From: an uncultured Candidatus Saccharibacteria bacterium
GTDB lineage: Bacteria; Patescibacteriota; Minisyncoccia; Phycocordibacterales; UBA12088
DNA length: 64,000 bases
NCBI GenBank assembly: GCA_964562615.1
Contig: CAZLUD010000001.1
Span: forward strand, 257,072-321,071
Reading direction: 5' to 3'
Shown: positions 5,897-16,560 of the stretch, piece by piece
Numbering within the stretch: the stretch's first letter is position 1
Layout: each line of letters starts with the position of its first letter
The notes under the pieces: generated by a model
What the model saw: the letters and a program-made list of their open reading frames with translations, nothing else
Databases searched by the model: none
Told to the model about the DNA's origin: nothing
Program-made: the position numbers and the translations under genes

Positions 5897-5906
5897 TAAC
5901 GCGTCA

Positions 5907-6197
5907 TCATACTTGCTGATAATTTCTAAACACTTCATTCTCTGGTAACCGCAAATCCTTGTAGACAAAACTGACACCATATGCCCTCAGCGCAGAAACG
6001 GGATCATCAACTCGCTCAACTCTCTTTGGGGTAAGTATATCTTTAGTAATCACCTCCAAATTACCTAGTCCATCTTTGTGAAAAAATGCATCTTTTTCAA
6101 AAGTATATAGATACCCTCCATCCCCATATAATGCAATGAGGCTTTCTTCCAATGAATCAAATCCGAAAATCTCCACTTCCTTCTTGTATTCATACAA
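5907..6197 (-). CDS. Hypothetical protein (downstream of CDPS, same strand)
   Basis: 96 aa ORF, AT-rich, co-oriented with CDPS; no recognised domain. Confidence 0.35.
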   Translation of the reverse strand: MYEYKKEVEIFGFDSLEESLIALYGDGGYLYTFEKDAFFHKDGLGNLEVITKDILTPKRVERVDDPVSALRAYGVSFVYKDLRLPENEVFRNYQQV

Positions 6198-6227
6198 ATC
6201 AACTCCCTTGTTGTAATGTGCTATCCT

Positions 6228-6437
6228 TCAATCAATTACGTATGGTTTAGGGGTACAGGTATACACAAGAGCTATCCATTTATGTGTGGTGGTGTGGAAA
6301 GAAACTTCATCAAAAATAGTGCATATCACCCCGTCATTGTCAGCGCTATTTCGAATATGTCGCTTGGGAATAGCACAATCAAACGAGTCACTTGATCCAT
6401 GGTATACGTATGCATCATCTAGCTCTGACTGATGCAT
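6228..6437 (-). CDS. Hypothetical small protein (downstream of CDPS)
   Basis: 69 aa ORF 6 nt downstream of CDPS stop; Cys-containing; no recognised domain. Confidence 0.3.
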   Translation of the reverse strand: MHQSELDDAYVYHGSSDSFDCAIPKRHIRNSADNDGVICTIFDEVSFHTTTHKWIALVYTCTPKPYVID

Positions 6438-6443
6438 ATGTAT

Positions 6444-7175
6444 TTAATAGTCCTTTATCAATTGCCCAGCAACTGGCTTTTGTAAATAATCTTCAACCAG
6501 AACACAAAGCTGCCGAAGTTGTAATGTTGAGGCGCTGAAATATTTACCACCTCTTATATCAAGAACAAATTGGCTCATTCCACTATCGACGTAGGTCGGA
6601 TACAAAATCAAATTATACAATGTGTTATTCCAAAATATTCCACCCAGTAACGTTGGGAGTTCACTTATTATGTACCCCGCAAGCTTATCCCTATCTTCAT
6701 TTGATACCGTTACATCTCTAAGTTCAATGTATTTGTTAACAAAATAGAGTACCCGCTCTCGAAATGCGGTATTCGATGTATATTCTTCAGCAAGAATTTC
6801 TCTCAAATGATCATAGCCGCTATTTTTTATGTCACTCCAGAATATTATATGCGTGTTTGCTATATAGGTGGGATCATTCTCTTTTCGTGCAAGATTACGA
6901 ATTGCTTTATCAAACATTCCTTTTATTCCATAACCCTTTTGCTGCACTTTCTCTTCAGCCTCCTCTTTGCTTAATCCCCTAAAGACCATCCAGTTAATGA
7001 CATCAATATCATCAGCGATAAGTATGAGAGCGTTATCCTTTGAATGGTGATGTGCCCATTGCACATACCGCTCCGCGAGCTCGGGTGTAAGGAGCTTATT
7101 TCCTAAACTGATACCCACAAAAATATTGAATAGTTTTTTGTTTATTTCCTCCTCCGTAACATGAAAATATTGCAT
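6444..7175 (-). CDS. tRNA-dependent cyclodipeptide synthase (CDPS, AlbC family)
   Basis: 243 aa; N-terminal IFVGISLGN matches the AlbC catalytic-Ser motif (ALIGISAGN); GYIISELP matches the AlbC Y178/E182 region (Y..AEAP); later YPTYVD matches the Y202 region; size and Rossmann-like layout fit CDPS. Confidence 0.7.
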   Translation of the reverse strand: MQYFHVTEEEINKKLFNIFVGISLGNKLLTPELAERYVQWAHHHSKDNALILIADDIDVINWMVFRGLSKEEAEEKVQQKGYGIKGMFDKAIRNLARKENDPTYIANTHIIFWSDIKNSGYDHLREILAEEYTSNTAFRERVLYFVNKYIELRDVTVSNEDRDKLAGYIISELPTLLGGIFWNNTLYNLILYPTYVDSGMSQFVLDIRGGKYFSASTLQLRQLCVLVEDYLQKPVAGQLIKDY

Positions 7176-7277
7176 ATTGTTATATTAAAACATATTTACG
7201 CGTATGAATATGTGTTCGGTTCTCTACCAAAACCTGCTAGCGCAGTAAAAATCAATCTATATACTGCATGGTATACC

Positions 7278-7883
7278 ATGACAGAATTTTGGGAATCTAG
7301 CTTTCAAAGCAAGCACATGATGTGGGGTGAAAGGCCTGCAGACTGCGTACATGAGGTAGTTGCTTTATTCAAGGAGCAAGGAGTGAAGAATGTTCTTATA
7401 CCCGGCTATGGCTACGGCAGAAACGCCAAGCCATTTATTGATAGCGGATTTGATGTAACAGGGATTGAAATATCACAAACAGCAATTGATTTAGCAAAAA
7501 AACACTCAAGTAATGACATCCTGATTCATCACGGCTCTGTCAGTGCGATGCCATTTGATGACGTGCAGTATGGTGGGATCTTTTGTTATGGGCTAATCCA
7601 TTTATTAGCTAAAGAAGAGAGGGCAAAACTCATCAAGGATTGCTACCGTCAATTACTGCCAGGTGGGTATATGGTATTTGTGGCACTTTCTAAAAATGAT
7701 GCTTCATATGGACAAGGAAAAGAGCTTAGCAGCAACACATTCCTTATGCCGTATGGGGTTACCCTTTTTTACTATGACGCTGATTCCATAAAAAATGAAT
7801 TTGAAGACCACACCATACTTGAGGCAAAAGAAATAAATGAGTCCTCAAGAAAATTTTGGCAGGTGACGTGTAAGAGAAATTGA
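7278..7883 (+). CDS. Class I SAM-dependent methyltransferase (candidate cyclodipeptide tailoring enzyme)
   Basis: Motif I VLIPGYGYGRNAKPFIDSGFDVTGIE, motif post-I/II (HHGSVSAMPFDD), LLPGGYMVF; start taken at internal ATG 7278 (MTEFWESS...); divergent from CDPS. Confidence 0.7.
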   Translation: MTEFWESSFQSKHMMWGERPADCVHEVVALFKEQGVKNVLIPGYGYGRNAKPFIDSGFDVTGIEISQTAIDLAKKHSSNDILIHHGSVSAMPFDDVQYGGIFCYGLIHLLAKEERAKLIKDCYRQLLPGGYMVFVALSKNDASYGQGKELSSNTFLMPYGVTLFYYDADSIKNEFEDHTILEAKEINESSRKFWQVTCKRN

Positions 7884-8370: not shown

Positions 8371-8450
8371 GACGGCGCCTCGTATTGCTTACGCAATATA
8401 CTCCGGCGTACCAGTGTCGCCTTCGCAAAGTCTTGCTTCGGCGTACCGAG

Positions 8451-8475
8451 GGCGGAGAGTGAGGGATTCGACCCG
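8451..8475 (-). repeat. 25-nt direct repeat identical to the 3' end of tRNA-Ser (att-like)
   Basis: ggcggagagtgagggattcgaaccc at 8451-8475 is identical to 12597-12621 (3' T-arm plus acceptor of tRNA-Ser on the minus strand). No matching 5' acceptor, so it is a fragment and not a gene. Confidence 0.75.
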
Positions 8476-8854
8476 CTTTTGCTAAGCCCTGCAGGCTAAG
8501 CACGCTGGTCGCGCCTCGCCGACAATTTTACTTCGCGTTGCTGCGTAAAATCGTAGACCGGCTCCGGCGTTCGAATCCCTCACTTCTCACCCAAAACATA
8601 GTCGCCCAATGCTTCGCATCGTTCTCCTTGTTTTGCGGTGGCGATGTCCCGAAGTTTGAACCGAAAAAGTGGCTCAAATTCAAGGATATTGATAAAAGTA
8701 TACGTGAATTAAGGGCTATGTACAAGATTCATCCTGAATGGTTTGAAACGCCTCACCCAGAGTCCAATAGAGGTAAAAATGAGGTGGATTATTCGATCAT
8801 TGAGCAACCCTACATGGAAACGAAAACGAGGCGTTAGCCTCGTCCCCGCTTTTC

Positions 8855-9073
8855 TTAGCGATCCGTAATAAGATCGTTCAGAGATTTGATATTATGTTCC
8901 TCAAGGTAGGTCCCGAGTTGCATATCAGACCTAACACCAAGGTCAATGCCGTATTGTTTCTCGATTGTGCCAATATGAGTATCATCACGCTTATCGCGCA
9001 GGAGCCCATTTTGGTTTCGAGAACGGCACCCCTTCATGCCAGGTGCGTCGTTCTTGCAATTTGAATTTGCCAT
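8855..9073 (-). CDS. Hypothetical small protein in island
   Basis: 72 aa ORF, no recognised domain. Confidence 0.25.
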   Translation of the reverse strand: MANSNCKNDAPGMKGCRSRNQNGLLRDKRDDTHIGTIEKQYGIDLGVRSDMQLGTYLEEHNIKSLNDLITDR

Positions 9074-9255
9074 AGTACGTCTCGAAATTAAGTTAATAAT
9101 GTCGAGAAAGGTTCGACTACCTCCTTCCTCGCGTCTGACGCGATATGAAGATAGTCATTTTGGCTTTTACAAGAACAGGACGGACTTTAACGTCTCGTTT
9201 TCAGTAATATTATAAATTATTTTAACTAATTCCGCAACCTCCTTTTCCTGCTATT

Positions 9256-9903
9256 TCATAACTCAATAACCTTATACCCTCCAGTAGACACAATAATATG
9301 ATTAATAAGAATAATCCCCAGAAGATCTCCTGCATCAGCTACTCGCTTTGTAATTGTGGCGTCTTCGTCTGAAGGTTCAAGGCTACCTGATGGGTGATTG
9401 TGGGCCAAGACAACCCCTGCCGCTGATAGTTGCAGAGCGGGCTCGAAGACCTCCCTTGGATGTAAAAGTGAAGTATCGAGCGTACCGACAGAAATAATAC
9501 GTCTTTCAATTAATTTTTGTTGTGTGTCAAGGTAAAACGCCACTATATGCTCTTTTTTTGATGAACGAAAATCTGCGCATAAATTCCATATATCCTTCAC
9601 TGATAGCAATTCAATACTGCTCTCACTCCTAAAACGATCAGCAAGAGAAATGACGGCAAGTATTTGAATTGCTTTTGCTTTTCCTAATCCGCGAATCTTT
9701 CGCAAATCTTCCAGTGTTACGTTATTTGCTGATTTTTGAGTTATGAATTTTTCTATTTTTCGAGCAAGCTCAAGTACGTTGCAACCTTTGATTCCTGAAC
9801 CAAGGATGATTGCTATCAATTCAAAATTTCTTAGACGTTTTGCGCCATACTTCTCCATTTTCTCTCGAGGAAGTTCTGTCTTCTTTAGTTCAGCAAGTTT
9901 CAT
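9256..9903 (-). CDS. radC: RadC-like JAB/MPN-domain protein (UPF0758)
   Basis: C-terminal JAMM motif VLAHNHPSGSLEPSDED; helix-hairpin-helix-like N-terminal part. Confidence 0.75.
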   Translation of the reverse strand: MKLAELKKTELPREKMEKYGAKRLRNFELIAIILGSGIKGCNVLELARKIEKFITQKSANNVTLEDLRKIRGLGKAKAIQILAVISLADRFRSESSIELLSVKDIWNLCADFRSSKKEHIVAFYLDTQQKLIERRIISVGTLDTSLLHPREVFEPALQLSAAGVVLAHNHPSGSLEPSDEDATITKRVADAGDLLGIILINHIIVSTGGYKVIEL

Positions 9904-9935
9904 GGCGTAGTTTTAGTATATAATAATCATAGTCG

Positions 9936-10439
9936 TTACATAAGCGAGTCGGCAATCTTCTTGACGCACGTGGATTGATCTTTTTTGAGTTGATGTTCCC
10001 AGAGACGCAACACAACCCAACCTTCAGTATGGAGTTTTTGAGTCACTCTTCTATCGCGTATTCTGTTGCGTTCAATTTTCTCTCGCCAGAAATCATTTTT
10101 GAGTAAATGCTTCCAACGTGGATATTGCCAGCCATGCCAAAAGTTACTGTCGAAGAACACGCAGACTCTATGTTTTTTAAAAACAATATCGGGTTTACCC
10201 AAAACACTCACATCGTTAATAGTAAAAATTTTGCGAGTTTGTTTTTTTAATACAGCAATCAAATTTTGCTCAAACTTGGTTGATTTTGAGCGTATAAGCG
10301 ACATTCGTCGTGATCGTTCTTTAACAGTTAGCTTGTCCGGACTCCTTTTTTTAGAAAAATCACGATTAAGACTATTATGAGTTTGTTTCTTCATAACCAG
10401 ACTGAAAAACTTCTGAGGGAAGTTCATTGCCAAGGCCAC
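9936..10439 (-). CDS. vsr: Very-short-patch repair endonuclease (Vsr)
   Basis: FDSNFWHGW...W..K...N..RD..V...L...GW.VLRLWEH motif set characteristic of Vsr; overlaps the 3' end of the upstream endonuclease gene by 65 nt. Confidence 0.75.
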   Translation of the reverse strand: MALAMNFPQKFFSLVMKKQTHNSLNRDFSKKRSPDKLTVKERSRRMSLIRSKSTKFEQNLIAVLKKQTRKIFTINDVSVLGKPDIVFKKHRVCVFFDSNFWHGWQYPRWKHLLKNDFWREKIERNRIRDRRVTQKLHTEGWVVLRLWEHQLKKDQSTCVKKIADSLM

Positions 10440-11418
10440 CGACGGCGTCCTTATCTATAAGATCTTTCCACTGCCTAATTCTATCTGCTTCAACAGACTG
10501 GACTTGCCAATAAAATTTCAACAATTCTTCATCTATTTCATTGATTCTACTGGCGATTCTTGACGCATAATCATGAAGTTGGGAAAGTATCTGTGATACA
10601 CTTTTTTTCTCCCGCGCGACCAAAACTTCTTGCTGACCACCTGCGCTAAAAGCATCACGCAAGCTTGTGGAGACCGCTCCAAATTCGGTGATCATGTACG
10701 TGGCCGCTCGTTCATAATTAGCACGATTTTTAAAGAGTTCGGGTAGAAGGATCATACAATCGATCTTAAATCTTTCTTTATTCTCCGGTTCCAAGGTTCG
10801 AAATTGTTTAATAACTGGGGAAGATGATTCTGATTCTTCATCAATCCACCACAAACCTTCGCCGTCTTTGAGTTGTTTTCTGTAATATGATTTTATTTGC
10901 TGTATAGTGTCTCCACTTGTTCGCAGCTCATCATAAGAAACACCCATTTTATCAAATATGGATTTTCCTTTTGGTAAGTCCATATTGATTCTATATCTTG
11001 GTGAATGAGTAACGCTTATCTCCGGCAAACACTCTTGGTATAACCGATAACGGACGTCGGGTTCTCCACCCAATTTCCCGAACATGATAAAAATTCGCTC
11101 AACATCTTCCATTCGTGAAGTTTCTAAGACGCTATTACCAGTTGAAGTCCAATGATCTTTAGAGGTTATCTTTACTTCAACTCCAAAATATCCGTTAGCG
11201 ACGATATCAGGAAAAGCATATACCCCTGTCCGCTTAATCGTTCCTTCAAATTCTGTGCCTATGGAAACCTCTTGCATCTTGTCGCAAACGAGACCTTCAA
11301 AATCAAGAGCTGAAATACTCTTATCTCCCCTCAAATGCGCCACTAAAAGTTTTTTCGACTTTTCCAAAAGCTCAACAAACCTTTCTTCGTGGGCGTTTTT
11401 CTTTTCTGAATAAATCAT
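10375..11418 (-). CDS. Putative Type II restriction endonuclease (PD-(D/E)xK fold)
   Basis: 347 aa between the C5-MTase and Vsr; candidate PD..E.K motif in AFPDIVANGYFGVEVK; start 2 nt after MTase stop. Confidence 0.5.
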   Translation of the reverse strand: MIYSEKKNAHEERFVELLEKSKKLLVAHLRGDKSISALDFEGLVCDKMQEVSIGTEFEGTIKRTGVYAFPDIVANGYFGVEVKITSKDHWTSTGNSVLETSRMEDVERIFIMFGKLGGEPDVRYRLYQECLPEISVTHSPRYRINMDLPKGKSIFDKMGVSYDELRTSGDTIQQIKSYYRKQLKDGEGLWWIDEESESSSPVIKQFRTLEPENKERFKIDCMILLPELFKNRANYERAATYMITEFGAVSTSLRDAFSAGGQQEVLVAREKKSVSQILSQLHDYASRIASRINEIDEELLKFYWQVQSVEADRIRQWKDLIDKDAVGGLGNELPSEVFQSGYEETNS

Positions 11419-11419
11419 A

Positions 11420-12406
11420 TTATTTCAAGTTCTTGTCGAGAAACGACCGAATCGACTTCGCAATATGCCATGCTAAAACTGGGGGTACGGCATTACCGAT
11501 CTGTTTATAAGCCTGGGACGTTGATGGTAAAAATTCCATGTCGTCAGGAAACGATTGAATCCTTGCGGCTTCACGAGCCGAAAGTCGTCGCTTACCATTC
11601 CAATGGTATTCAATATTGCCATGATGCTCTGTTCTCATTGTTGGTCCTGGTTTATCGGAATCTATTATTCCGTTTCCCTGTCCTTTATTTTTCTTTGCTT
11701 TAGACCAATAGTGGTTTGATAAGCCGCCTTCTTTGACATTTTCCAAATCACCAAACGCCTCTTTTACTGATACGTGTTTGCCTTTGTGAGTTGGCCTTGG
11801 ATAATCATCGTCCTTAAATAAAGGCAAAACATCTTTACGGGTTCCAACAATAACTACTCGCTCACGCATTTGTGGCACGCCATAATCAGCAGCAAGAAGT
11901 AGTTTATGATTTACATGGTATCCCAATTTTGCAAAATCATTTTTGATAATACCTATGGCTGTTCCGTTGTCTATCGTAAGAAGACCCCTAACGTTCTCAG
12001 CAACAAACATCATCGGTTTCGTCCGACGGATAACCTCGGCCATACTACGATAAAGGAGACCTTTTTCGCTATTAAATCCTCTTCGCTTCCCAGCATGACT
12101 AAACTCCTGACACGGAAAACCACCGAGTACGATATCAACTTTTTTTGGTAGTGGCGTATCAAGCTTAGAATTATGTTTACCACTCAAAATATCAACAATG
12201 CTTCCGCAAACAATATCATGTTTGAAATAATTTTTAAAAGTTTTACATGCTGGTTCGTCTATGTCGTTGGCCCAATCTATAATAAACGGATGTTTCTGGT
12301 ATTTTTTTCCATTTGATTCAAAACCACCGACAAAACCGAGATCTAGACCACCACATCCAGTAAAAAGCGACGCAACCGTAAATTTATTTTTAGTATTGTT
12401 GGTCAT
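11420..12406 (-). CDS. dcm: DNA (cytosine-5)-methyltransferase (Dcm-type)
   Basis: Motif I LFTGCGGLDLGF, motif IV GGFPCQEFS, motif VI ENVRGL, QMRERVVIVG, C-terminal GNAVPP. Confidence 0.85.
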   Translation of the reverse strand: MTNNTKNKFTVASLFTGCGGLDLGFVGGFESNGKKYQKHPFIIDWANDIDEPACKTFKNYFKHDIVCGSIVDILSGKHNSKLDTPLPKKVDIVLGGFPCQEFSHAGKRRGFNSEKGLLYRSMAEVIRRTKPMMFVAENVRGLLTIDNGTAIGIIKNDFAKLGYHVNHKLLLAADYGVPQMRERVVIVGTRKDVLPLFKDDDYPRPTHKGKHVSVKEAFGDLENVKEGGLSNHYWSKAKKNKGQGNGIIDSDKPGPTMRTEHHGNIEYHWNGKRRLSAREAARIQSFPDDMEFLPSTSQAYKQIGNAVPPVLAWHIAKSIRSFLDKNLK

Positions 12407-12520
12407 AAAATTATTTTAGATTGCAATCAATATAGTTATGGTTGTTTAGAATTATTTCTAGTTCACCGTACAACTGTATTTTACCAGAAATTCATTAATT
12501 TGATGAGTGTATTTAGAAAA

Positions 12521-12550
12521 ACCGGCATCTTATTCTAATGCCGGCTTTTC
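12521..12550 (-). terminator. Hairpin plus T-run downstream of tRNA-Ser
   Basis: accggcat-cttattcta-atgccgg followed by T-run on the minus strand. Confidence 0.4.
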
Positions 12551-12595
12551 AATCGTATAAATCCCTTATTTTGCTTGGGTTCAAACTTGGTAATC

Positions 12596-12685
12596 TGGCG
12601 GAGAGTGAGGGATTCGAACCCTCGAGGGGTTTTACCCCCTACCTCGTTAGCAGTGAGGCGCTTTCGGCCACTCAGCCAACTCTCC
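12596..12685 (-). tRNA. tRNA-Ser (anticodon GCU), CCA encoded
   Basis: Minus-strand read GGAGAGTTGGCTGAGTGGCCGAAAGCGCCTCACTGCTAACGAGG...long variable arm...GAGGGTTCGAATCCCTCACTCTCCGCCA; 7-bp acceptor, anticodon loop CTGCTAA. Confidence 0.85.
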
Positions 12686-12753: not shown

Positions 12754-13137
12754 TTATGAAGCGAGACCTAAAAGCTCCTCAGCCTTGTGGACTATTTCTT
12801 CAAGAAAAACCGATGACTTTACCAAATACTCATTAGCTCCTGCCTTGAGTGCTTCCTCCTTCTCTGCATCCTGCGCGTTGTTAGAAACAATAACCACCGG
12901 CACTTCTTTATGAATACCAGCGCGTATCTCTTTGAGTAGCTCTATGCCATTTTCTCCCGGTAGTCCTATATCAAGACATACTAGATCAACCCGCTCTGCT
13001 TCTAGGTACTTTTTTGCATCGATGGCATTTGCCGCATGAAGCACCTTGAATACCGTACTCAGCTTTCTTCCTAAAATATCAGAAATAAAAATATCATCCT
13101 CTACCACCAATACCGTTCGTTTAATTGTTTCAGTCAT
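12754..13137 (-). CDS. Stand-alone response regulator receiver (CheY-like) domain protein
   Basis: VLVVEDD...DLVCLDIGLPGENG...K receiver motifs; 127 aa. Confidence 0.7.
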   Translation of the reverse strand: MTETIKRTVLVVEDDIFISDILGRKLSTVFKVLHAANAIDAKKYLEAERVDLVCLDIGLPGENGIELLKEIRAGIHKEVPVVIVSNNAQDAEKEEALKAGANEYLVKSSVFLEEIVHKAEELLGLAS

Positions 13138-15995: not shown

Positions 15996-16505
15996 ATGAA
16001 AAAGCTGTACTCTTTTCTCATCTCTGCAGTGATTCTAATAGGAGTACTTGGACTAAATTGGAAAACAACAATAATAGAAGGGGTTGCGTACGAGATATTT
16101 TCTCAAAGTAATTCTCTTCGTGAAAATTTTGACCAATTCATACGATGTACTCAGGAGATAAGAGCAAGCAATACTGGATGCTCGAGAAATTTTCAAAGAA
16201 TATTTACTGGGAGAGATTCCGCAATTGCTGAATCTTGGCCGGATATATTTGACGCACTTGAAGCAAAGCCTCACTGGGCATGGGTCAAGAGGAATGATTT
16301 CCGCGCATTTCATGATGCAATACAGTCATATGGGCGAAACAAATTGAGAAATGAATGTGTACCTATAATTACCTATATGTACACTGAGGGACGAACTACG
16401 TTCAATTTCGATCACCGCTACCGGTGTAGCGGTGATCCTAGGCCACCTTCGGGTGGCCTTTCCTTTTTACTCCCAACCACAAACTGTGCGCCCGCTTGGA
16501 CTTGA
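15996..16505 (+). CDS. Hypothetical secreted/membrane-anchored protein
   Basis: Start at MKKLYSFLISAVILIGVLG (signal/TM); the 3' end runs through a hairpin and overlaps the tRNA on the opposite strand, so the C-terminus is uncertain. Confidence 0.4.
   Translation: MKKLYSFLISAVILIGVLGLNWKTTIIEGVAYEIFSQSNSLRENFDQFIRCTQEIRASNTGCSRNFQRIFTGRDSAIAESWPDIFDALEAKPHWAWVKRNDFRAFHDAIQSYGRNKLRNECVPIITYMYTEGRTTFNFDHRYRCSGDPRPPSGGLSFLLPTTNCAPAWT
16441..16470 (+). terminator. Rho-independent terminator-like hairpin
   Basis: ggccacc-ttcg-ggtggcc followed by tttccttttt. Confidence 0.5.
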
Positions 16506-16560
16506 ACCAAGGACCCCAAAGGTATAAGCTTTGTGCTCTAACCAACTGAGCTACGGGCGC
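16487..16560 (-). tRNA. tRNA-Ile with anticodon UAU (no encoded CCA)
   Basis: Minus-strand read GCGCCCG-TA-GCTC-AGTTGGTTA-GAGC-A-CAAAG-CTTATAC-CTTTG-GGGTC-CTTGG-TTCAAGT-CCAAG-CGGGCGC-A; clean cloverleaf; anticodon loop CTTATAC gives UAU. Confidence 0.75.

What the first reader, a model, noticed from the sequence alone, without database searches (positions are those of the whole stretch)
8451..12621. Integrase-less 4.1 kb island at tRNA-Ser(GCU) carrying a compact Dcm methyltransferase - PD-ExK endonuclease - Vsr module plus RadC
A 25-nt sequence identical to the 3' end of tRNA-Ser(GCU) (12597-12621) recurs as a direct repeat at 8451-8475. This is the classic attL/attR signature of integration into a tRNA gene. 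Between the repeats lie a Dcm-type C5-cytosine methyltransferase, then a 347-aa putative PD-(D/E)xK endonuclease starting 2 nt after the MTase stop. A Vsr very-short-patch-repair nuclease overlaps the endonuclease 3' end by 65 nt, and a RadC/JAB-domain gene follows. No integrase/recombinase ORF is present, so the island may be a decayed or trans-mobilised element. The tight methyltransferase/endonuclease/Vsr packing suggests a self-contained restriction-modification unit that also repairs the T:G mismatches its own methylation creates.
Basis: partly seen in the sequence, partly recalled or inferred. Interest (0 to 1): 0.65.

Follow-up and report, generated by a model that had tools for sequence, protein, structure and literature searches.

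The report
Recombinase-less restriction cassette at tRNA-Ser
A 4-kb block of genes (a DNA-cutting restriction enzyme, its protective methylase, a mismatch-repair nuclease and RadC) sits exactly at the end of a serine tRNA gene; it has no enzyme to move itself, but its two ends are the docking half-sites of a serine recombinase found in related elements, and it is one of many swappable defence cassettes at this site in ultra-small (CPR) bacteria.

Summary
The island is real, but its proposed boundaries and att sites are wrong. The repeat is 21 nt exact (23/25), and it also exists in a sister-strain contig (L011) that lacks the island. That empty site sets the insert at 8639-12597 (3,959 bp), joined to the tRNA-Ser(GCU) 3' end through a 4-nt core (CCGC).

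The cargo is as described: a C5 methyltransferase, a 347-aa PD..ExK nuclease with an EcoRV-like predicted fold, Vsr, RadC and a 72-aa ORF. The nuclease and methylase families co-occur across phyla. Specificity is unknown.

The ends are the informative part. The head (AGATTACCAAGTTTGAACC) and tail (GGTTCAAACTTCGGGACATCGCCACCGC) recur in about 60 metagenome loci. They follow tRNA-Ser genes of every isoacceptor or join each other in tandem arrays. Joined, they form a ~48-bp imperfect palindrome, like an attP site. The head 19-mer is also the 3' end of a large serine recombinase gene in related elements at the same tRNA position.

Cargo in 138 ORFs is dominated by restriction-modification and defence genes. 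None of 21 complete cassettes encodes a recombinase. Sister genomes carry DpnII or Shedu cargo at this locus.

Best reading: an SCC-like, recombinase-less defence cassette moved by a serine recombinase supplied from elsewhere. Mobilisation is inferred, not shown.

The parts
12596..12685 (-). tRNA-Ser(GCU), intact. Its 3' end (..CTCTCCGCC-A) is the attachment point (B half-site).
   Evidence: ARAGORN; Rfam RF00005 55.4 bits; junction comparison.
12598..12601 (-). Core CCGC at the tRNA-side junction (attL). It is shared by the empty site and both junctions, so the crossover lies inside it.
   Evidence: window ..CTCTCCGC|CAGATTA; L011 empty ..CTCTCCGC|AAAACAAGG; window distal ..CGCCACCGC|AAAACAAGG.
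12578..12597 (-). Head / P' half-site: C+AGATTACCAAGTTTGAACC. It is conserved at the start of about 60 cassettes. In autonomous relatives it is the last codons (..VQTWKSGG) of a large serine recombinase gene on the opposite strand.
   Evidence: heads after tRNA-Ser GCU/UGA/CGA/GGA; LSR in L189, L166, L121, L115.
12516..12577 (-). Rest of the conserved head. It includes the hairpin AAAAGCCGGCAT..ATGCCGGTTTTT (12516-12549) between the tRNA and the MTase. It looks like a terminator, and a weak promoter-like site (12561->12532) lies over it.
   Evidence: Sequence; conserved in L018, L026, L027. The promoter scan is not above chance.
11420..12406 (-). C5-cytosine DNA methyltransferase, 328 aa. Motifs: FTGCGGLDLGF (I), GFPCQEFS (IV), ENV (VI), QMRERV (VIII), GNAVPP (X). 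Target unknown.
   Evidence: PF00145 3.3e-71; TIGR00675; PADLOC MTase_II 4e-92. The TRD (aa ~195-270) does not align to M.HaeIII or M.HhaI.
10375..11418 (-). Type II restriction endonuclease candidate, 347 aa. PD-(D/E)XK core is D71..E81-V-K83, and the predicted fold is EcoRV-like.
   Evidence: PADLOC REase_II 2.2e-49. F69 P70 D71 G79 E81 K83 are invariant in 63 sequences. AF2 pLDDT 89.9. Foldseek best hits are EcoRV, SwaI and HincII, E 2e-3, prob 1.0. It co-occurs with the MTase family on 6 plasmids from 5 phyla and is annotated 'restriction endonuclease' next to a C5 MTase + Vsr in Klebsiella.
9936..10394 (-). Vsr-family T:G mismatch endonuclease. Probable start is ATG 10394 (152 aa); the longest ORF runs to 10439. 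It is an optional module, precisely absent from the 94%-identical cassette in L018.
   Evidence: TIGR00632 103.3 bits, cut-off 97.85; E. coli Vsr 1cw0 7e-16, with D51 and H69 equivalents kept and zinc ligands not kept.
9256..9903 (-). RadC (UPF0758 N-terminal + JAB domain), 215 aa. It lies inside the cassette and travels with M-R-Vsr in L026.
   Evidence: NF000642 4.3e-57; PF04002 1.6e-35; L026 89.6% nt over 9287-12642.
8855..9073 (-). 72-aa ORF, no family match. It is called as a gene in the identical contigs L012 and L013.
8639..8837 (+). Conserved cassette tail. On the strand opposite to the cargo it encodes a peptide (GGDVPKFEPKKWLKFKDIDKSIRELRAMYKIHPEWFETPHPESNRGKNEVDYSI..) that begins exactly at the att core. 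Its function is unexplained.
   Evidence: 83% nt to the L026 distal end. The frame is open with a stop at a similar position (44-57 codons) in 25 of 26 tails. Third-codon-position differences are 2.1x those at positions 1 and 2. All 54 database homologues are 39-106 aa with unrelated N-termini.
8639..8668 (-). P half-site at the distal junction (attR): ..TTCGGTTCAAACTTCGGGACATCGCCA, followed by the core.
   Evidence: The same arm lies at the distal end of about 26 cassettes. It is joined to the next head in the tandem arrays L026, L177, L144, L195, L154 and L105.
8635..8638 (-). Second copy of the 4-nt core (CCGC on the tRNA strand) at the distal junction.
   Evidence: 4-nt overlap of the two L011 alignments.
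8451..8634 (.). Not part of the cassette: a resident GC-rich block. In L011 the T copy is the insertion point of a different (Shedu) cassette.
   Evidence: Fold z-score -6.5 on the tRNA-sense strand. No Rfam family.

Best explanation
Window 8639-12597 is a 3.96-kb gene cassette that lacks a recombinase. It has been inserted by site-specific recombination at the extreme 3' end of tRNA-Ser(GCU), within CCGC of ..CTCTCCGCC.

Its cargo is a Type II restriction-modification pair, an accessory Vsr nuclease, RadC and a small ORF. The pair is a C5 methyltransferase and a PD-(D/E)XK nuclease with an EcoRV-like fold. Vsr would repair the T:G mismatches produced by deamination of the 5-methylcytosines the methylase makes.

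The cassette ends are the P' ('head') and P ('tail') half-sites of an attP-like site. This site is recognised by a family of large serine recombinases (LSRs) of CPR bacteria that target the 3' end of tRNA-Ser genes. The LSR is not in the cassette, so movement must depend on an LSR from a related element. That could be in trans, or by excision and integration of a tandem composite, as with recombinase-less SCC-type cassettes in staphylococci.

The tRNA-Ser end therefore acts as a landing pad where defence cassettes are exchanged between strains and between CPR lineages.

Shown:
- the presence/absence polymorphism with exact junctions;
- the conserved head and tail;
- the palindromic head-tail junction in arrays;
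- the head embedded in an LSR gene;
- the R-M/defence-dominated cargo.

Inferred:
- that this LSR family acts on these sites;
- that the cassette is still mobile;
- nuclease and methylase activity and specificity.
For: 1. Empty site. L011 (identical response regulator, flanks 95.6-98.9% nt) joins the tRNA directly to rc(8638..8451). The junctions share only CCGC. Contigs identical to the window break at 8609-8611 and 12597, as expected for strain heterogeneity at these junctions.

2. Same M-R module at other tRNA-Ser genes. The module (87-94% nt) lies immediately 3' of different tRNA-Ser genes (GGA, CGA) in unrelated genomic contexts. Homology starts at ..TCCGCC|AGAT...

3. Recurrence of the head. 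Of 120 metagenome hits, 63 were judged real. Of these, 41 directly abut a tRNA: Ser-GCU 10, UGA 10, CGA 10, GGA 6, ACU 1, and 4 others. The rest follow tails or decayed tRNA ends.

4. Conserved tail. It lies at the distal end of about 26 cassettes. There are 21 complete head+tail cassettes of 1.56-6.85 kb.

5. Palindromic junction. Tail and head joined in arrays give GGTTCAAAsTTCsGGACATC-GCCACCGCC-AGATGTCCAAGTTTGAACC, a ~48-bp imperfect palindrome. This matches the 40-50-bp att sites of serine integrases (abstract of 10.1101/2025.05.02.651858, listed).

6. Link to an LSR. Elements with the head variant AGATTTCC.. carry an LSR with Resolvase + Recombinase + Zn_ribbon_recom domains. The LSR gene is antisense to the tRNA, and its last codons (VQTWKSGG) are the head plus core. 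L098 holds a 5'-truncated LSR remnant, so decay by deletion occurs. In L091 a cassette tail abuts another LSR gene.

7. Cargo. Among 138 ORFs after heads: N6_N4 MTase 9, D12 MTase 7, C5 MTase 6, N6_Mtase 6, Eco57I 6, plus EcoRI methylase, ResIII, TdeIII, AccI, GmrSD and OLD/AAA_15. The same locus holds DpnII R-M + AAA_13 in L001 and Shedu in L011.

8. R-M identity.
Against: - No LSR gene lies in the 64-kb window, and the rest of the genome cannot be read. No circular or excised form was seen.
- Serine integrases normally recombine only attP x attB and need a directionality factor for attL x attR (abstract of PMC3783163, listed). Excision of the cassette and the building of tandem arrays with intact P-core-P' junctions are therefore not explained by the textbook reaction. 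No directionality factor was identified.
- The LSR-bearing elements sampled have a slightly different head (TT instead of TA or GT) and a different tail (P2 type). Cross-recognition is assumed.
- The P arm has 2 extra bases relative to P', so symmetry is imperfect.
- The recombinase test was single-sequence phmmer, which could miss a divergent or novel recombinase.
- The Pfam summary of cargo shows only the 25 commonest families.
- Nuclease fold similarity to EcoRV is modest (E 2e-3, TM 0.34/0.48). Specificity is unknown.
Confidence: 0.6

Rival explanations
1. This is a classical tRNA-integrated island spanning 8451-12621. Its attL/attR are the 21-25-nt direct repeat of the tRNA 3' end, made by a tyrosine integrase that has since been lost.
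For: A significant 21-nt exact repeat in direct orientation lies 3' of the tRNA. The geometry is right for integration into a tRNA 3' end.
Against: The repeat and the whole 188-nt block 8451-8638 are present, 98.4% identical, in the empty-site allele L011 directly after the tRNA. The insert ends at 8638/8639. No integrase or remnant is present. Cassette ends in about 60 loci are the head/tail pair, not long tRNA repeats.
Confidence: 0.04
2. No site-specific recombinase is involved. The tRNA-Ser locus is a variable hotspot where cargo is swapped by homologous recombination between conserved flanks after DNA uptake. The head and tail are merely conserved intergenic modules.
For: There are three different cargos between the same flanks in close relatives (window, L011, L001). 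The conserved head and tail could themselves serve as homology for exchange of the cargo between them.
Against: The same cassette sits after tRNA-Ser genes of different isoacceptors in genomes with no flank homology, always joined at ..CCGCC|AGAT. The distal joins are to unrelated sequences at a fixed base. The empty and occupied sites differ by a clean insertion with a 4-nt core. The head is physically part of an LSR gene.
Confidence: 0.12
3. The cassette is site-specific but is moved by another enzyme class acting on the hairpin-forming head/tail palindrome. Candidates are a host Xer-type tyrosine recombinase (IMEX-like), an integron-type integrase acting on folded single strands, or an HUH/IS200-type single-strand transposase (insertion 3' of a fixed short target, with subterminal hairpins).
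For: The head and tail are subterminal inverted repeats that would fold into a ~19-bp hairpin with the core in the loop. Insertion is always 3' of CCGCC. No recombinase lies in the cassettes.
Against: No tyrosine recombinase or TnpA was found next to any head or tail (the one XerD-like hit, L142, is a chance pattern match). By contrast, LSR genes overlap the head itself in at least 14 loci. No IntI or attI context was seen. Cassettes are multi-gene with their own regulatory regions.
Confidence: 0.1
4. The cassette is a fixed relic. It arrived as part of a larger LSR-bearing element, the LSR part was then deleted, and what remains can no longer move.
For: The window head carries a TAA where the LSR reading frame would be (context). 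A truncated LSR remnant exists in L098. No LSR lies in the window.
Against: All 21 complete cassettes lack a recombinase yet keep both half-sites intact. The same M-R cassette is 87-94% identical at different tRNA-Ser genes in different genomes, each time without an LSR. It is polymorphic between strains about 96% identical in their flanks.
Confidence: 0.15

Closest known systems
Staphylococcal cassette chromosome (SCC) elements, including ccr-less pseudo-SCC cassettes and the tandem defence cassettes mobilised by CcrAB/CcrC large serine recombinases (PMC10055296 / PMC11470126). Enterococcus cassette chromosome (PMC6222049).
   Same: - One fixed chromosomal landing site at the 3' end of a conserved gene.
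- Cassettes of a few kb, in tandem arrays.
- Many cassettes without their own recombinase.
- Cargo enriched in R-M and anti-phage defence.
- The recombinase is a large serine recombinase encoded by only some members.
   Different: - The target is a tRNA-Ser gene end rather than rlmH.
- Hosts are CPR/Patescibacteria.
- The LSRs were not shown to be related to Ccr.
- The att half-site overlaps the 3' end of the LSR gene.
- Every cassette keeps a ~160-nt tail with a conserved coding frame.
- Mobilisation has not been shown here.
CIMEs (cis-mobilisable elements) of streptococci and other att-flanked islands lacking integrase.
   Same: Integrated elements bounded by att sites but without recombination genes. 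They are thought to move by accretion with, and co-excision alongside, an autonomous relative.
   Different: CIMEs use tyrosine integrases and long direct repeats in fda or tRNA genes. Here the sites are LSR-type half-sites with a 4-nt shared core.
Type II R-M systems with a linked vsr gene. Examples are E. coli Dcm-Vsr and HpaII M/R/V (own knowledge). A homologous R + C5-MTase + Vsr trio lies on Klebsiella plasmid CP110748.
   Same: A C5 methylase and its nuclease, plus a Vsr-family nuclease to correct T:G mismatches from 5mC deamination. The homologous R and M families are involved (31% and 46% identity).
   Different: Gene order and overlap differ. The Vsr here lacks the zinc ligands of E. 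coli Vsr and is dispensable (absent from L018 and L027). Specificity is unknown.
EcoRV-like (blunt-cutting) branch of PD-(D/E)XK restriction enzymes (EcoRV, SwaI, HincII).
   Same: These are the best structural matches of the AF2 model. The PD..(D/E)xK catalytic triad is invariant.
   Different: - 9-12% sequence identity and TM only 0.34/0.48.
- An extra helical N-terminal and C-terminal region.
- No Pfam family.
- The cleavage geometry is not known.
Integron gene cassettes.
   Same: Promoter-proximal landing site, arrays of exchangeable cassettes, each with a hairpin-forming imperfect palindrome at the cassette junction, and no recombinase in the cassette.
   Different: No IntI tyrosine recombinase and no attI. 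The cassettes are multi-gene and self-expressed. The recombinase candidate is a serine recombinase, and the site is a tRNA gene.
SSV1-type integrases of archaeal viruses. Own knowledge.
   Same: attP lies inside the integrase gene, and integration into a tRNA gene changes or splits the integrase ORF.
   Different: Those are tyrosine recombinases, and the gene is split in two. Here only the last codons of a serine recombinase overlap the site, and the link to the 55-aa tail is unproven.

Membership tests
Type II restriction-modification system (C5 MTase + PD-(D/E)XK REase) | C5-MTase catalytic motifs I, IV (PCQ), VI (ENV), VIII (QxRxR), X (GNAV) | tested here: met
   The sequence shows FTGCGGLDLGF, GFPCQEFS, ENV, QMRERV and GNAVPP. 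PF00145 3.3e-71.
Type II restriction-modification system (C5 MTase + PD-(D/E)XK REase) | Nuclease with a PD..(D/E)xK active site conserved across the family | tested here: met
   D71, E81 and K83 are invariant in 63 sequences down to 31% identity. PADLOC REase_II 2.2e-49.
Type II restriction-modification system (C5 MTase + PD-(D/E)XK REase) | Restriction-endonuclease fold | tested here: inconclusive
Type II restriction-modification system (C5 MTase + PD-(D/E)XK REase) | Nuclease and methylase inherited together | tested here: met
   They are adjacent in all contexts read. Six of the seven plasmids with a nuclease homologue are the six best methylase hits.
Type II restriction-modification system (C5 MTase + PD-(D/E)XK REase) | Sequence-specific cleavage blocked by the cognate methylation; defined recognition site | not testable with these tools
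   The TRD does not align to M.HaeIII or M.HhaI. No named homologue was found.
Vsr very-short-patch repair endonuclease | Family profile above the curated cut-off, and catalytic Asp/His retained | tested here: met
   TIGR00632 103.3 bits against 97.85. In the alignment to 1cw0 the equivalents of D51 and H69 are present.
Vsr very-short-patch repair endonuclease | Structural zinc site (C66, H71, C73, C117 of E. coli Vsr) and H64 | tested here: not met
   C66->N, H71->W, C73->Y, H64->D in the alignment. This is a divergent member, and its activity on T:G is inferred only.
Classical tRNA-integrated genomic island (tyrosine integrase, long direct repeat of the tRNA 3' end at the far boundary) | The direct repeat of the tRNA 3' end marks the distal boundary and is absent from the empty site | tested here: not met
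   The repeat at 8451-8474 is present in the empty-site contigs L011 and L014. The boundary is at 8638/8639 with a 4-nt core.
Classical tRNA-integrated genomic island (tyrosine integrase, long direct repeat of the tRNA 3' end at the far boundary) | Integrase gene next to the tRNA-proximal att site | tested here: not met
   No Pfam, NCBIfam or phmmer recombinase signal in the island.
LSR-dependent chromosomal cassette (SCC-like), recombinase-less member | Insertion at one conserved chromosomal site with exact, reproducible junctions | tested here: met
   The junction is ..CCGCC|AGAT.. after tRNA-Ser in 37 loci, plus 4 after other tRNAs. The empty site is known.
LSR-dependent chromosomal cassette (SCC-like), recombinase-less member | The two ends together reconstitute a 40-50-bp imperfectly palindromic att site | tested here: met
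   Tail-core-head junctions in L026, L177, L144, L195, L154 and L105. Size criterion from 10.1101/2025.05.02.651858 (abstract, listed).
LSR-dependent chromosomal cassette (SCC-like), recombinase-less member | A large serine recombinase encoded by related elements uses the same site | tested here: inconclusive
   An LSR (Resolvase + Recombinase + Zn_ribbon_recom) overlaps the head 19-mer (1-2 nt different) at the same tRNA position in at least 14 loci. Recognition of the window's TA-type head and P1 tail was not tested.
LSR-dependent chromosomal cassette (SCC-like), recombinase-less member | Tandem arrays with other cassettes | tested here: met
   In relatives: L026 (M-R-Vsr-RadC-SMC cassette followed by an HTH / N6_N4 MTase / ResIII cassette), L195, L144, L105. 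In the window itself the cassette is single.
LSR-dependent chromosomal cassette (SCC-like), recombinase-less member | Excision and circularisation dependent on the recombinase | not testable with these tools
   No circular junction for this cassette was found.
Integron gene cassette | IntI tyrosine integrase, attI and attC (R''-L''/L'-R' with extrahelical bases) | tested here: not met
   No tyrosine recombinase lies near any array. The site is a tRNA end, and the cassettes are multi-gene.

The most novel reading that the evidence does not exclude
Across CPR/Patescibacteria, the 3' end of tRNA-Ser genes may be a general cassette-capture platform run by large serine recombinases. It would function like an integron or SCC system but would be built on a tRNA gene.

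Recombinase-less R-M and defence cassettes would be shuffled between strains and classes. Every cassette carries a conserved 55-codon 'exon' that begins exactly at the crossover point. That exon would be joined to an upstream reading frame, plausibly the recombinase's C-terminus, only across an intact head-tail junction. Integration state would then rewrite a protein involved in directionality or in cassette hitch-hiking.
Probability: 0.25. Interest if true: 0.8.

Novelty: new variant of a known kind. Interest (0 to 1): 0.55.

Why it matters
CPR bacteria have tiny genomes and are often said to rely on restriction-modification rather than CRISPR for defence. How they acquire and exchange these systems is poorly described.

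This locus shows a concrete route. A single tRNA-Ser end accepts interchangeable cassettes: Dcm-type R-M + Vsr here, DpnII R-M + AAA_13 and Shedu in sister genomes, and many other R-M types in about 60 metagenome loci. The cassettes have conserved recombination ends and usually no recombinase.

If the linked large serine recombinases do drive this, three things follow:
- It is an SCC-like system in a completely different phylum, at a tRNA target.
- It gives a simple sequence signature (..CCGCC|AGATnnCCAAGTTTGAACC and the tail) for mining defence cargo in uncultured bacteria.
- It provides natural LSR/att pairs with a short tRNA-derived attB for genome engineering.

The R-M + Vsr module itself is ordinary.

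Tried and rejected
1. Testing the 8451-8590 region as a tmRNA, pseudo-tRNA or known ncRNA. ARAGORN and Rfam (gathering threshold, and E <= 10) found nothing. The region folds strongly but remains unexplained.

2. Predicting the methylase target. The TRD does not align with M.HaeIII or M.HhaI. Plasmid and phage homologues carry only generic names. The nuclease has no PDB sequence relative.

3. Tyrosine integrase. Ten mid-size ORFs of the window are housekeeping genes. phmmer with XerD found nothing relevant.

4. IS200/IS605 TnpA. No hits.

5. Phage or plasmid origin. The head pattern in IMG/VR gave 55 hits, all unrelated coding sequences without a tRNA context. The tail pattern gave none.

6. 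The idea that the tRNA gene travels with the cassette. BLAST homology appeared to cover the tRNA. This was rejected: the tRNAs are different genes, and the shared sequence starts at ..TCCGCC.

7. The idea that the 55-aa tail is the C-terminus of a full-length LSR. The frame fits type-1 LSRs, but no database protein joins them. All 54 homologues are 39-106 aa with unrelated N-termini. In L091 the adjacent LSR is in another frame.

8. Base composition. The cassette (GC 0.37-0.45) is not clearly different from its flanks.

9. Promoter and terminator scans. Not above chance.

Full report
**1. The observation**

ARAGORN and Rfam both find tRNA-Ser(GCU) at 12596-12685 on the minus strand. A second copy of its 3' end lies at 8451. 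The 21-mer GGCGGAGAGTGAGGGATTCGA occurs exactly twice in 64 kb, against 0.02 expected.

The claimed 25/25 identity is wrong. The match is 21 nt exact, 23/25 over the stated span, and 24 nt at 96% ungapped.

The genes are as described, all on the minus strand:
- C5 methyltransferase, 11420-12406 (PF00145 3e-71).
- A 347-aa ORF, 10375-11418, starting one base after the MTase stop.
- A Vsr homologue, 9936-10439 (TIGR00632 above its curated cut-off).
- RadC, 9256-9903.

The 65-nt R/Vsr overlap applies only to the longest ORF. The ATG at 10394 gives a 20-nt overlap and matches the 151-aa gene call in a related locus.

- a 72-aa ORF at 8855-9073;
- an inverted copy of the tRNA 3' half at 8553-8590;
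- the GC-rich, strongly folding character of 8371-8640.

**2. Where the island really ends**

I searched for contigs encoding the identical response regulator (12754-13137). This returned contigs identical to the window (L012, L013) and a 12-kb contig, L011, from a close relative. L011's flanks are 95.6-98.9% identical in nucleotide sequence.

In L011 the tRNA is followed immediately by the reverse complement of window 8638..8451. L014, from another sample, shows the same join. On the tRNA strand the junctions read:
- window, tRNA side: ..CTCTCCGC|CAGATTACCAAGTTTGAACC..
- L011, empty site: ..CTCTCCGC|AAAACAAGGAG..
- window, distal side: ..GGTTCAAACTTCGGGACATCGCCACCGC|AAAACAAGGAG..

The insert is therefore 8639-12597 (3,959 bp), flanked by a 4-nt core, CCGC. 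The 21-nt repeat belongs to a resident 188-nt block that pre-dates the insertion.

Two further observations fit strain heterogeneity at exactly these joins. The contigs identical to the window break at 8609-8611, about 30 nt inside the shared block. Others break at 12597.

The locus is a hotspot:
- L011 has a 2.55-kb insert (a 336-aa ORF plus a Shedu SduA protein) exactly after the 24-nt tRNA-end copy at window 8451/8454. It begins ..CTCTCCGCC|AAGATTA...
- L001 is the closest GTDB representative, a Saccharibacteria MAG with RecG 92% identical. Between the same outer flanks it carries a DNA-alkylation-repair-like gene, a Dam methylase, DpnII, a second methylase and an AAA_13 ATPase.

**3. The cargo**

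The MTase has all the catalytic motifs. Its target-recognition region does not align with M.HaeIII or M.HhaI.

The 347-aa protein has no Pfam, NCBIfam or PDB sequence match. It does hit a PADLOC Type II REase model at 2e-49. It belongs to a family with 803 cluster representatives at 50% identity.

In a 63-sequence alignment, F69-P70-D71, G79, E81 and K83 are invariant. This is a textbook PD..ExK site. An AlphaFold model is confident (pLDDT 89.9). Its best PDB matches are all restriction enzymes of the EcoRV branch (EcoRV, SwaI, HincII). The scores are modest: E about 2e-3, TM 0.34/0.48.

Co-inheritance is strong. MTase and nuclease are adjacent in every context read. Six of the seven plasmids holding a nuclease homologue are also the six best MTase hits, spanning Staphylococcus, Pelobacter, Klebsiella, Bacillus and Enterococcus. 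On the Klebsiella plasmid the homologue is annotated as a restriction endonuclease and sits beside a C5 MTase and a Vsr.

Vsr aligns to E. coli Vsr. The D51 and H69 equivalents are kept, but the zinc ligands and H64 are not. It is an optional module. The 94%-identical cassette in L018 lacks precisely 9920-10374, and L027 has M-R only.

RadC travels with M-R-Vsr in L026 (89.6% nt over 9287-12642).

I conclude that this is a Type II R-M pair of unknown specificity with an accessory Vsr. Function is inferred from homology and context, not shown.

**4. The ends are the informative part**

The same M-R module (87-94% nt) lies immediately 3' of tRNA-Ser(GGA) in L018, L019 and L026, and 3' of tRNA-Ser(CGA) in L027 and L029. 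These genomes have unrelated flanks. The tRNAs are different genes, and shared sequence starts at ..TCCGCC|AGAT(T/G)(A/T)CCAAGTTTGAACC.

In L026 the cassette (M, R, Vsr, RadC, SMC-like) ends with a homologue of window 8795-8635. It is followed at once by a second head and a different cassette (HTH, N6_N4 MTase, ResIII). The junction reads GGTTCAAAGTTCCGGACATC-GCCACCGCC-AGATGTCCAAGTTTGAACC, a ~48-bp imperfect palindrome.

I judged 63 real and the rest chance matches in coding sequence. Of the 63:
- 41 directly abut a tRNA: Ser-GCU 10, Ser-UGA 10, Ser-CGA 10, Ser-GGA 6, Ser-'ACU' 1, and four called Asp or Trp;
- the others follow tails or decayed tRNA ends.

The tail arm, with about 25 further conserved bases, marks the distal end of about 26 cassettes. 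It is followed either by unrelated chromosome or by the next head. Twenty-one complete head-to-tail cassettes measure 1.56-6.85 kb.

Pfam scanning of 138 ORFs downstream of heads shows cargo dominated by DNA methyltransferases and restriction or defence genes:

| Family | ORFs |
|---|---|
| N6_N4 MTase | 9 |
| D12 MTase | 7 |
| C5 MTase | 6 |
| N6_Mtase | 6 |
| Eco57I | 6 |
| EcoRI methylase | 3 |
| ResIII | 3 |

TdeIII, AccI, GmrSD, OLD/AAA_15 and HNH also appear.

**5. Which recombinase?**

I ran phmmer with XerD, gamma-delta resolvase and IS608 TnpA against every ORF of at least 100 aa in the window and all relevant loci. It found no tyrosine recombinase or HUH transposase in any context that mattered. 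It did find serine recombinases in L121, L166, L189 and L115.

With one of these as query, full or partial copies appear in at least 14 loci. All carry the head variant AGATTTCCAAGTTTGAACC. The protein has the Resolvase + Recombinase + Zn_ribbon_recom architecture of a large serine recombinase.

The gene lies antisense to the tRNA. Its last codons..VQTWKSGG, are the reverse complement of the head plus the core. The head of the recombinase-less cassettes is thus the 3' end of an LSR gene, differing by one or two bases.

Other supporting observations:
- A 5'-truncated LSR remnant exists in L098.
- In L091 a complete cassette is followed directly by a second LSR lineage (28% identical) with a different P' arm.
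- The palindromic 48-bp head-tail junction fits the 40-50-bp att sites of serine integrases (abstract of 10.1101/2025.05.02.651858, listed).

The window has no LSR.

**6. Mechanism proposed**

The cassette was integrated at the tRNA-Ser 3' end by an LSR acting on its head-tail site (attP-like) and on the tRNA end (attB). The crossover lay within CCGC.

Because the cassette has no LSR, the enzyme must come from a related element. This could be in trans, or by movement of a tandem composite. The latter is what CcrAB does for recombinase-less cassettes next to SCCmec (PMC10055296, PMC11470126).

One side-effect is visible in the sequence. The empty tRNA gene ends ..GCAA, and insertion supplies an encoded CCA.

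Shown:
- the polymorphism and its junctions;
- conservation of both ends;
- the arrays;
- the physical overlap of the head with LSR genes;
- the cargo spectrum.

Inferred:
- that these LSRs recombine these sites;
- that the TA-type head and P1 tail are recognised;
- that the cassette is still mobile.

Difficulties:
- Canonical serine integrases recombine only attP x attB and need a directionality factor for excision (abstract of PMC3783163, listed).
- Arrays with intact tail-head junctions need either composite circles or non-canonical pairings.
- No directionality factor was identified.

**7. Unexplained features**

(a) The tail encodes a conserved peptide of about 55 aa on the strand opposite the cargo. 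The peptide begins exactly at the core.
- The frame is open, with a stop at a similar position (44-57 codons), in 25 of 26 tails.
- Third-position differences are 2.1-fold those at positions 1 and 2.
- All 54 database homologues are 39-106 aa. Their N-termini are unrelated and derive from whatever lies beyond the junction.
- The frame is continuous with ..VQTW(K/T)SGG of the type-1 LSR across a tail-head junction, but no such fusion protein was found.
- The window's own head has a TAA at that position.

(b) The resident block 8451-8638 holds the tRNA 3' end in both orientations. It also holds an inverted copy of the sequence that follows the tRNA in L001. It is more conserved than its flanks (98.4%) and folds with z = -6.5.
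- Its direct tRNA-end copy serves as the insertion point for the Shedu insert in L011.
- The crossover interval common to both insertions is CGC. Any central dinucleotide there (CG or GC) would be palindromic.
- A palindromic central dinucleotide might allow recombination in either orientation, which could account for inverted copies. This is speculation.

**8. Comparison and novelty**

The R-M + Vsr module is a new member of a known kind.

The cassette system is closest to SCC and pseudo-SCC elements. It also resembles CIMEs, integron cassettes, and (for the att site within the recombinase gene) SSV1-type integrases.

I found no description of tRNA-Ser-targeted LSR cassette arrays in CPR bacteria in four literature searches. 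A survey of HGT in Patescibacteria reports genomic islands, including one with a type I R-M system. The terms 'integrase' and 'recombinase' do not occur in its text (PMC12455944).

I rate it a new variant of a known kind.

**9. Verdict**

| Claim | Confidence |
|---|---|
| The island is real, with corrected boundaries 8639-12597 | about 0.9 |
| The cargo is an R-M + Vsr system | about 0.8 |
| It is an LSR-type cassette lacking its recombinase and mobilised by a related LSR | about 0.6 |

Interest: 0.55.

Noticed in passing
window 8451-8638: A resident 188-nt GC-rich block. It contains the tRNA-Ser 3' end in direct (8451-8474) and inverted (8553-8590) orientation. It also contains an inverted copy (8591-8634) of the sequence that directly follows the tRNA in L001. 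It is 98.4% identical in L011 and folds at -119.7 kcal/mol (z -6.5) on the tRNA-sense strand. No Rfam family matches. Origin and function are unknown.
   Followed up: partly
window 8639-8837 (+) and about 26 other cassette tails: A conserved peptide of about 55 aa (GGDVPKFEPKKWLKFKDIDKSIRELRAMFKQHPQWFE..DYSI*) is encoded from the exact crossover point. It shows codon-position bias, but its N-terminus differs in every locus. No full-length partner protein was found.
   Followed up: partly
window 5900-7218: A 1.3-kb insertion relative to L011. It carries a cyclodipeptide-synthase-like gene (6444-7175, PF16715 7e-11) and two small ORFs. It artificially extends the N-terminus of the neighbouring SAM methyltransferase ORF (7161-7883, against 201 aa in L011).
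   Followed up: no
L011 4345-6892: A sister strain carries a 336-aa ORF plus a Shedu SduA_C protein. They are inserted exactly after the 24-nt tRNA-end copy (window 8451/8454) and begin with AAGATTA. The head and tail are only weakly similar to the main family.
   Followed up: partly
L001 2706-8860: The closest GTDB relative carries a different cargo at the same tRNA-Ser locus: a DNA-alkylation-repair-like gene, a Dam (D12) methylase, DpnII endonuclease, an N6_N4 methylase and a 766-aa AAA_13 ATPase. The AAA_13 domain is the ABC-ATPase type found in PrrC/RloC-type anticodon nucleases.
   Followed up: no
window 16486-16560: tRNA-Ile with anticodon TAT (UAU). This is uncommon in bacteria, which usually read AUA with a lysidine-modified CAU tRNA. 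It is conserved in the related loci L001, L002, L004, L005 and L011.
   Followed up: no
window 9936-10394: The Vsr homologue lacks the zinc ligands of E. coli Vsr (C66->N, H71->W, C73->Y) and has H64->D, while keeping D51 and H69.
   Followed up: partly
L091 2-793; L098 72-1130: A second large serine recombinase lineage (28% identical to the L189 type). It also ends at a tRNA 3' end or cassette tail, but with a different half-site (CAATTTTCACTTTTTGTGAAATCG).
   Followed up: no
L011 4153-4165 vs window 12593-12605: The empty tRNA-Ser gene does not encode CCA (..CTCCGCAAAA). Insertion of the cassette supplies it (..CTCCGCCAGAT). All cassette-bearing tRNA-Ser genes seen have an encoded CCA.
   Followed up: no
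window 8413-8448: CGGCGTACC occurs twice within 35 nt in the GC-rich spacer between the DUF2975 gene and the tRNA-end copy. The second copy lies just outside the Shedu insertion point seen in L011.
   Followed up: no
L004, L005: More distant Saccharibacteria relatives have two adjacent, divergently oriented tRNA-Ser genes at this locus (GCU, plus one called ACU by ARAGORN).
   Followed up: no
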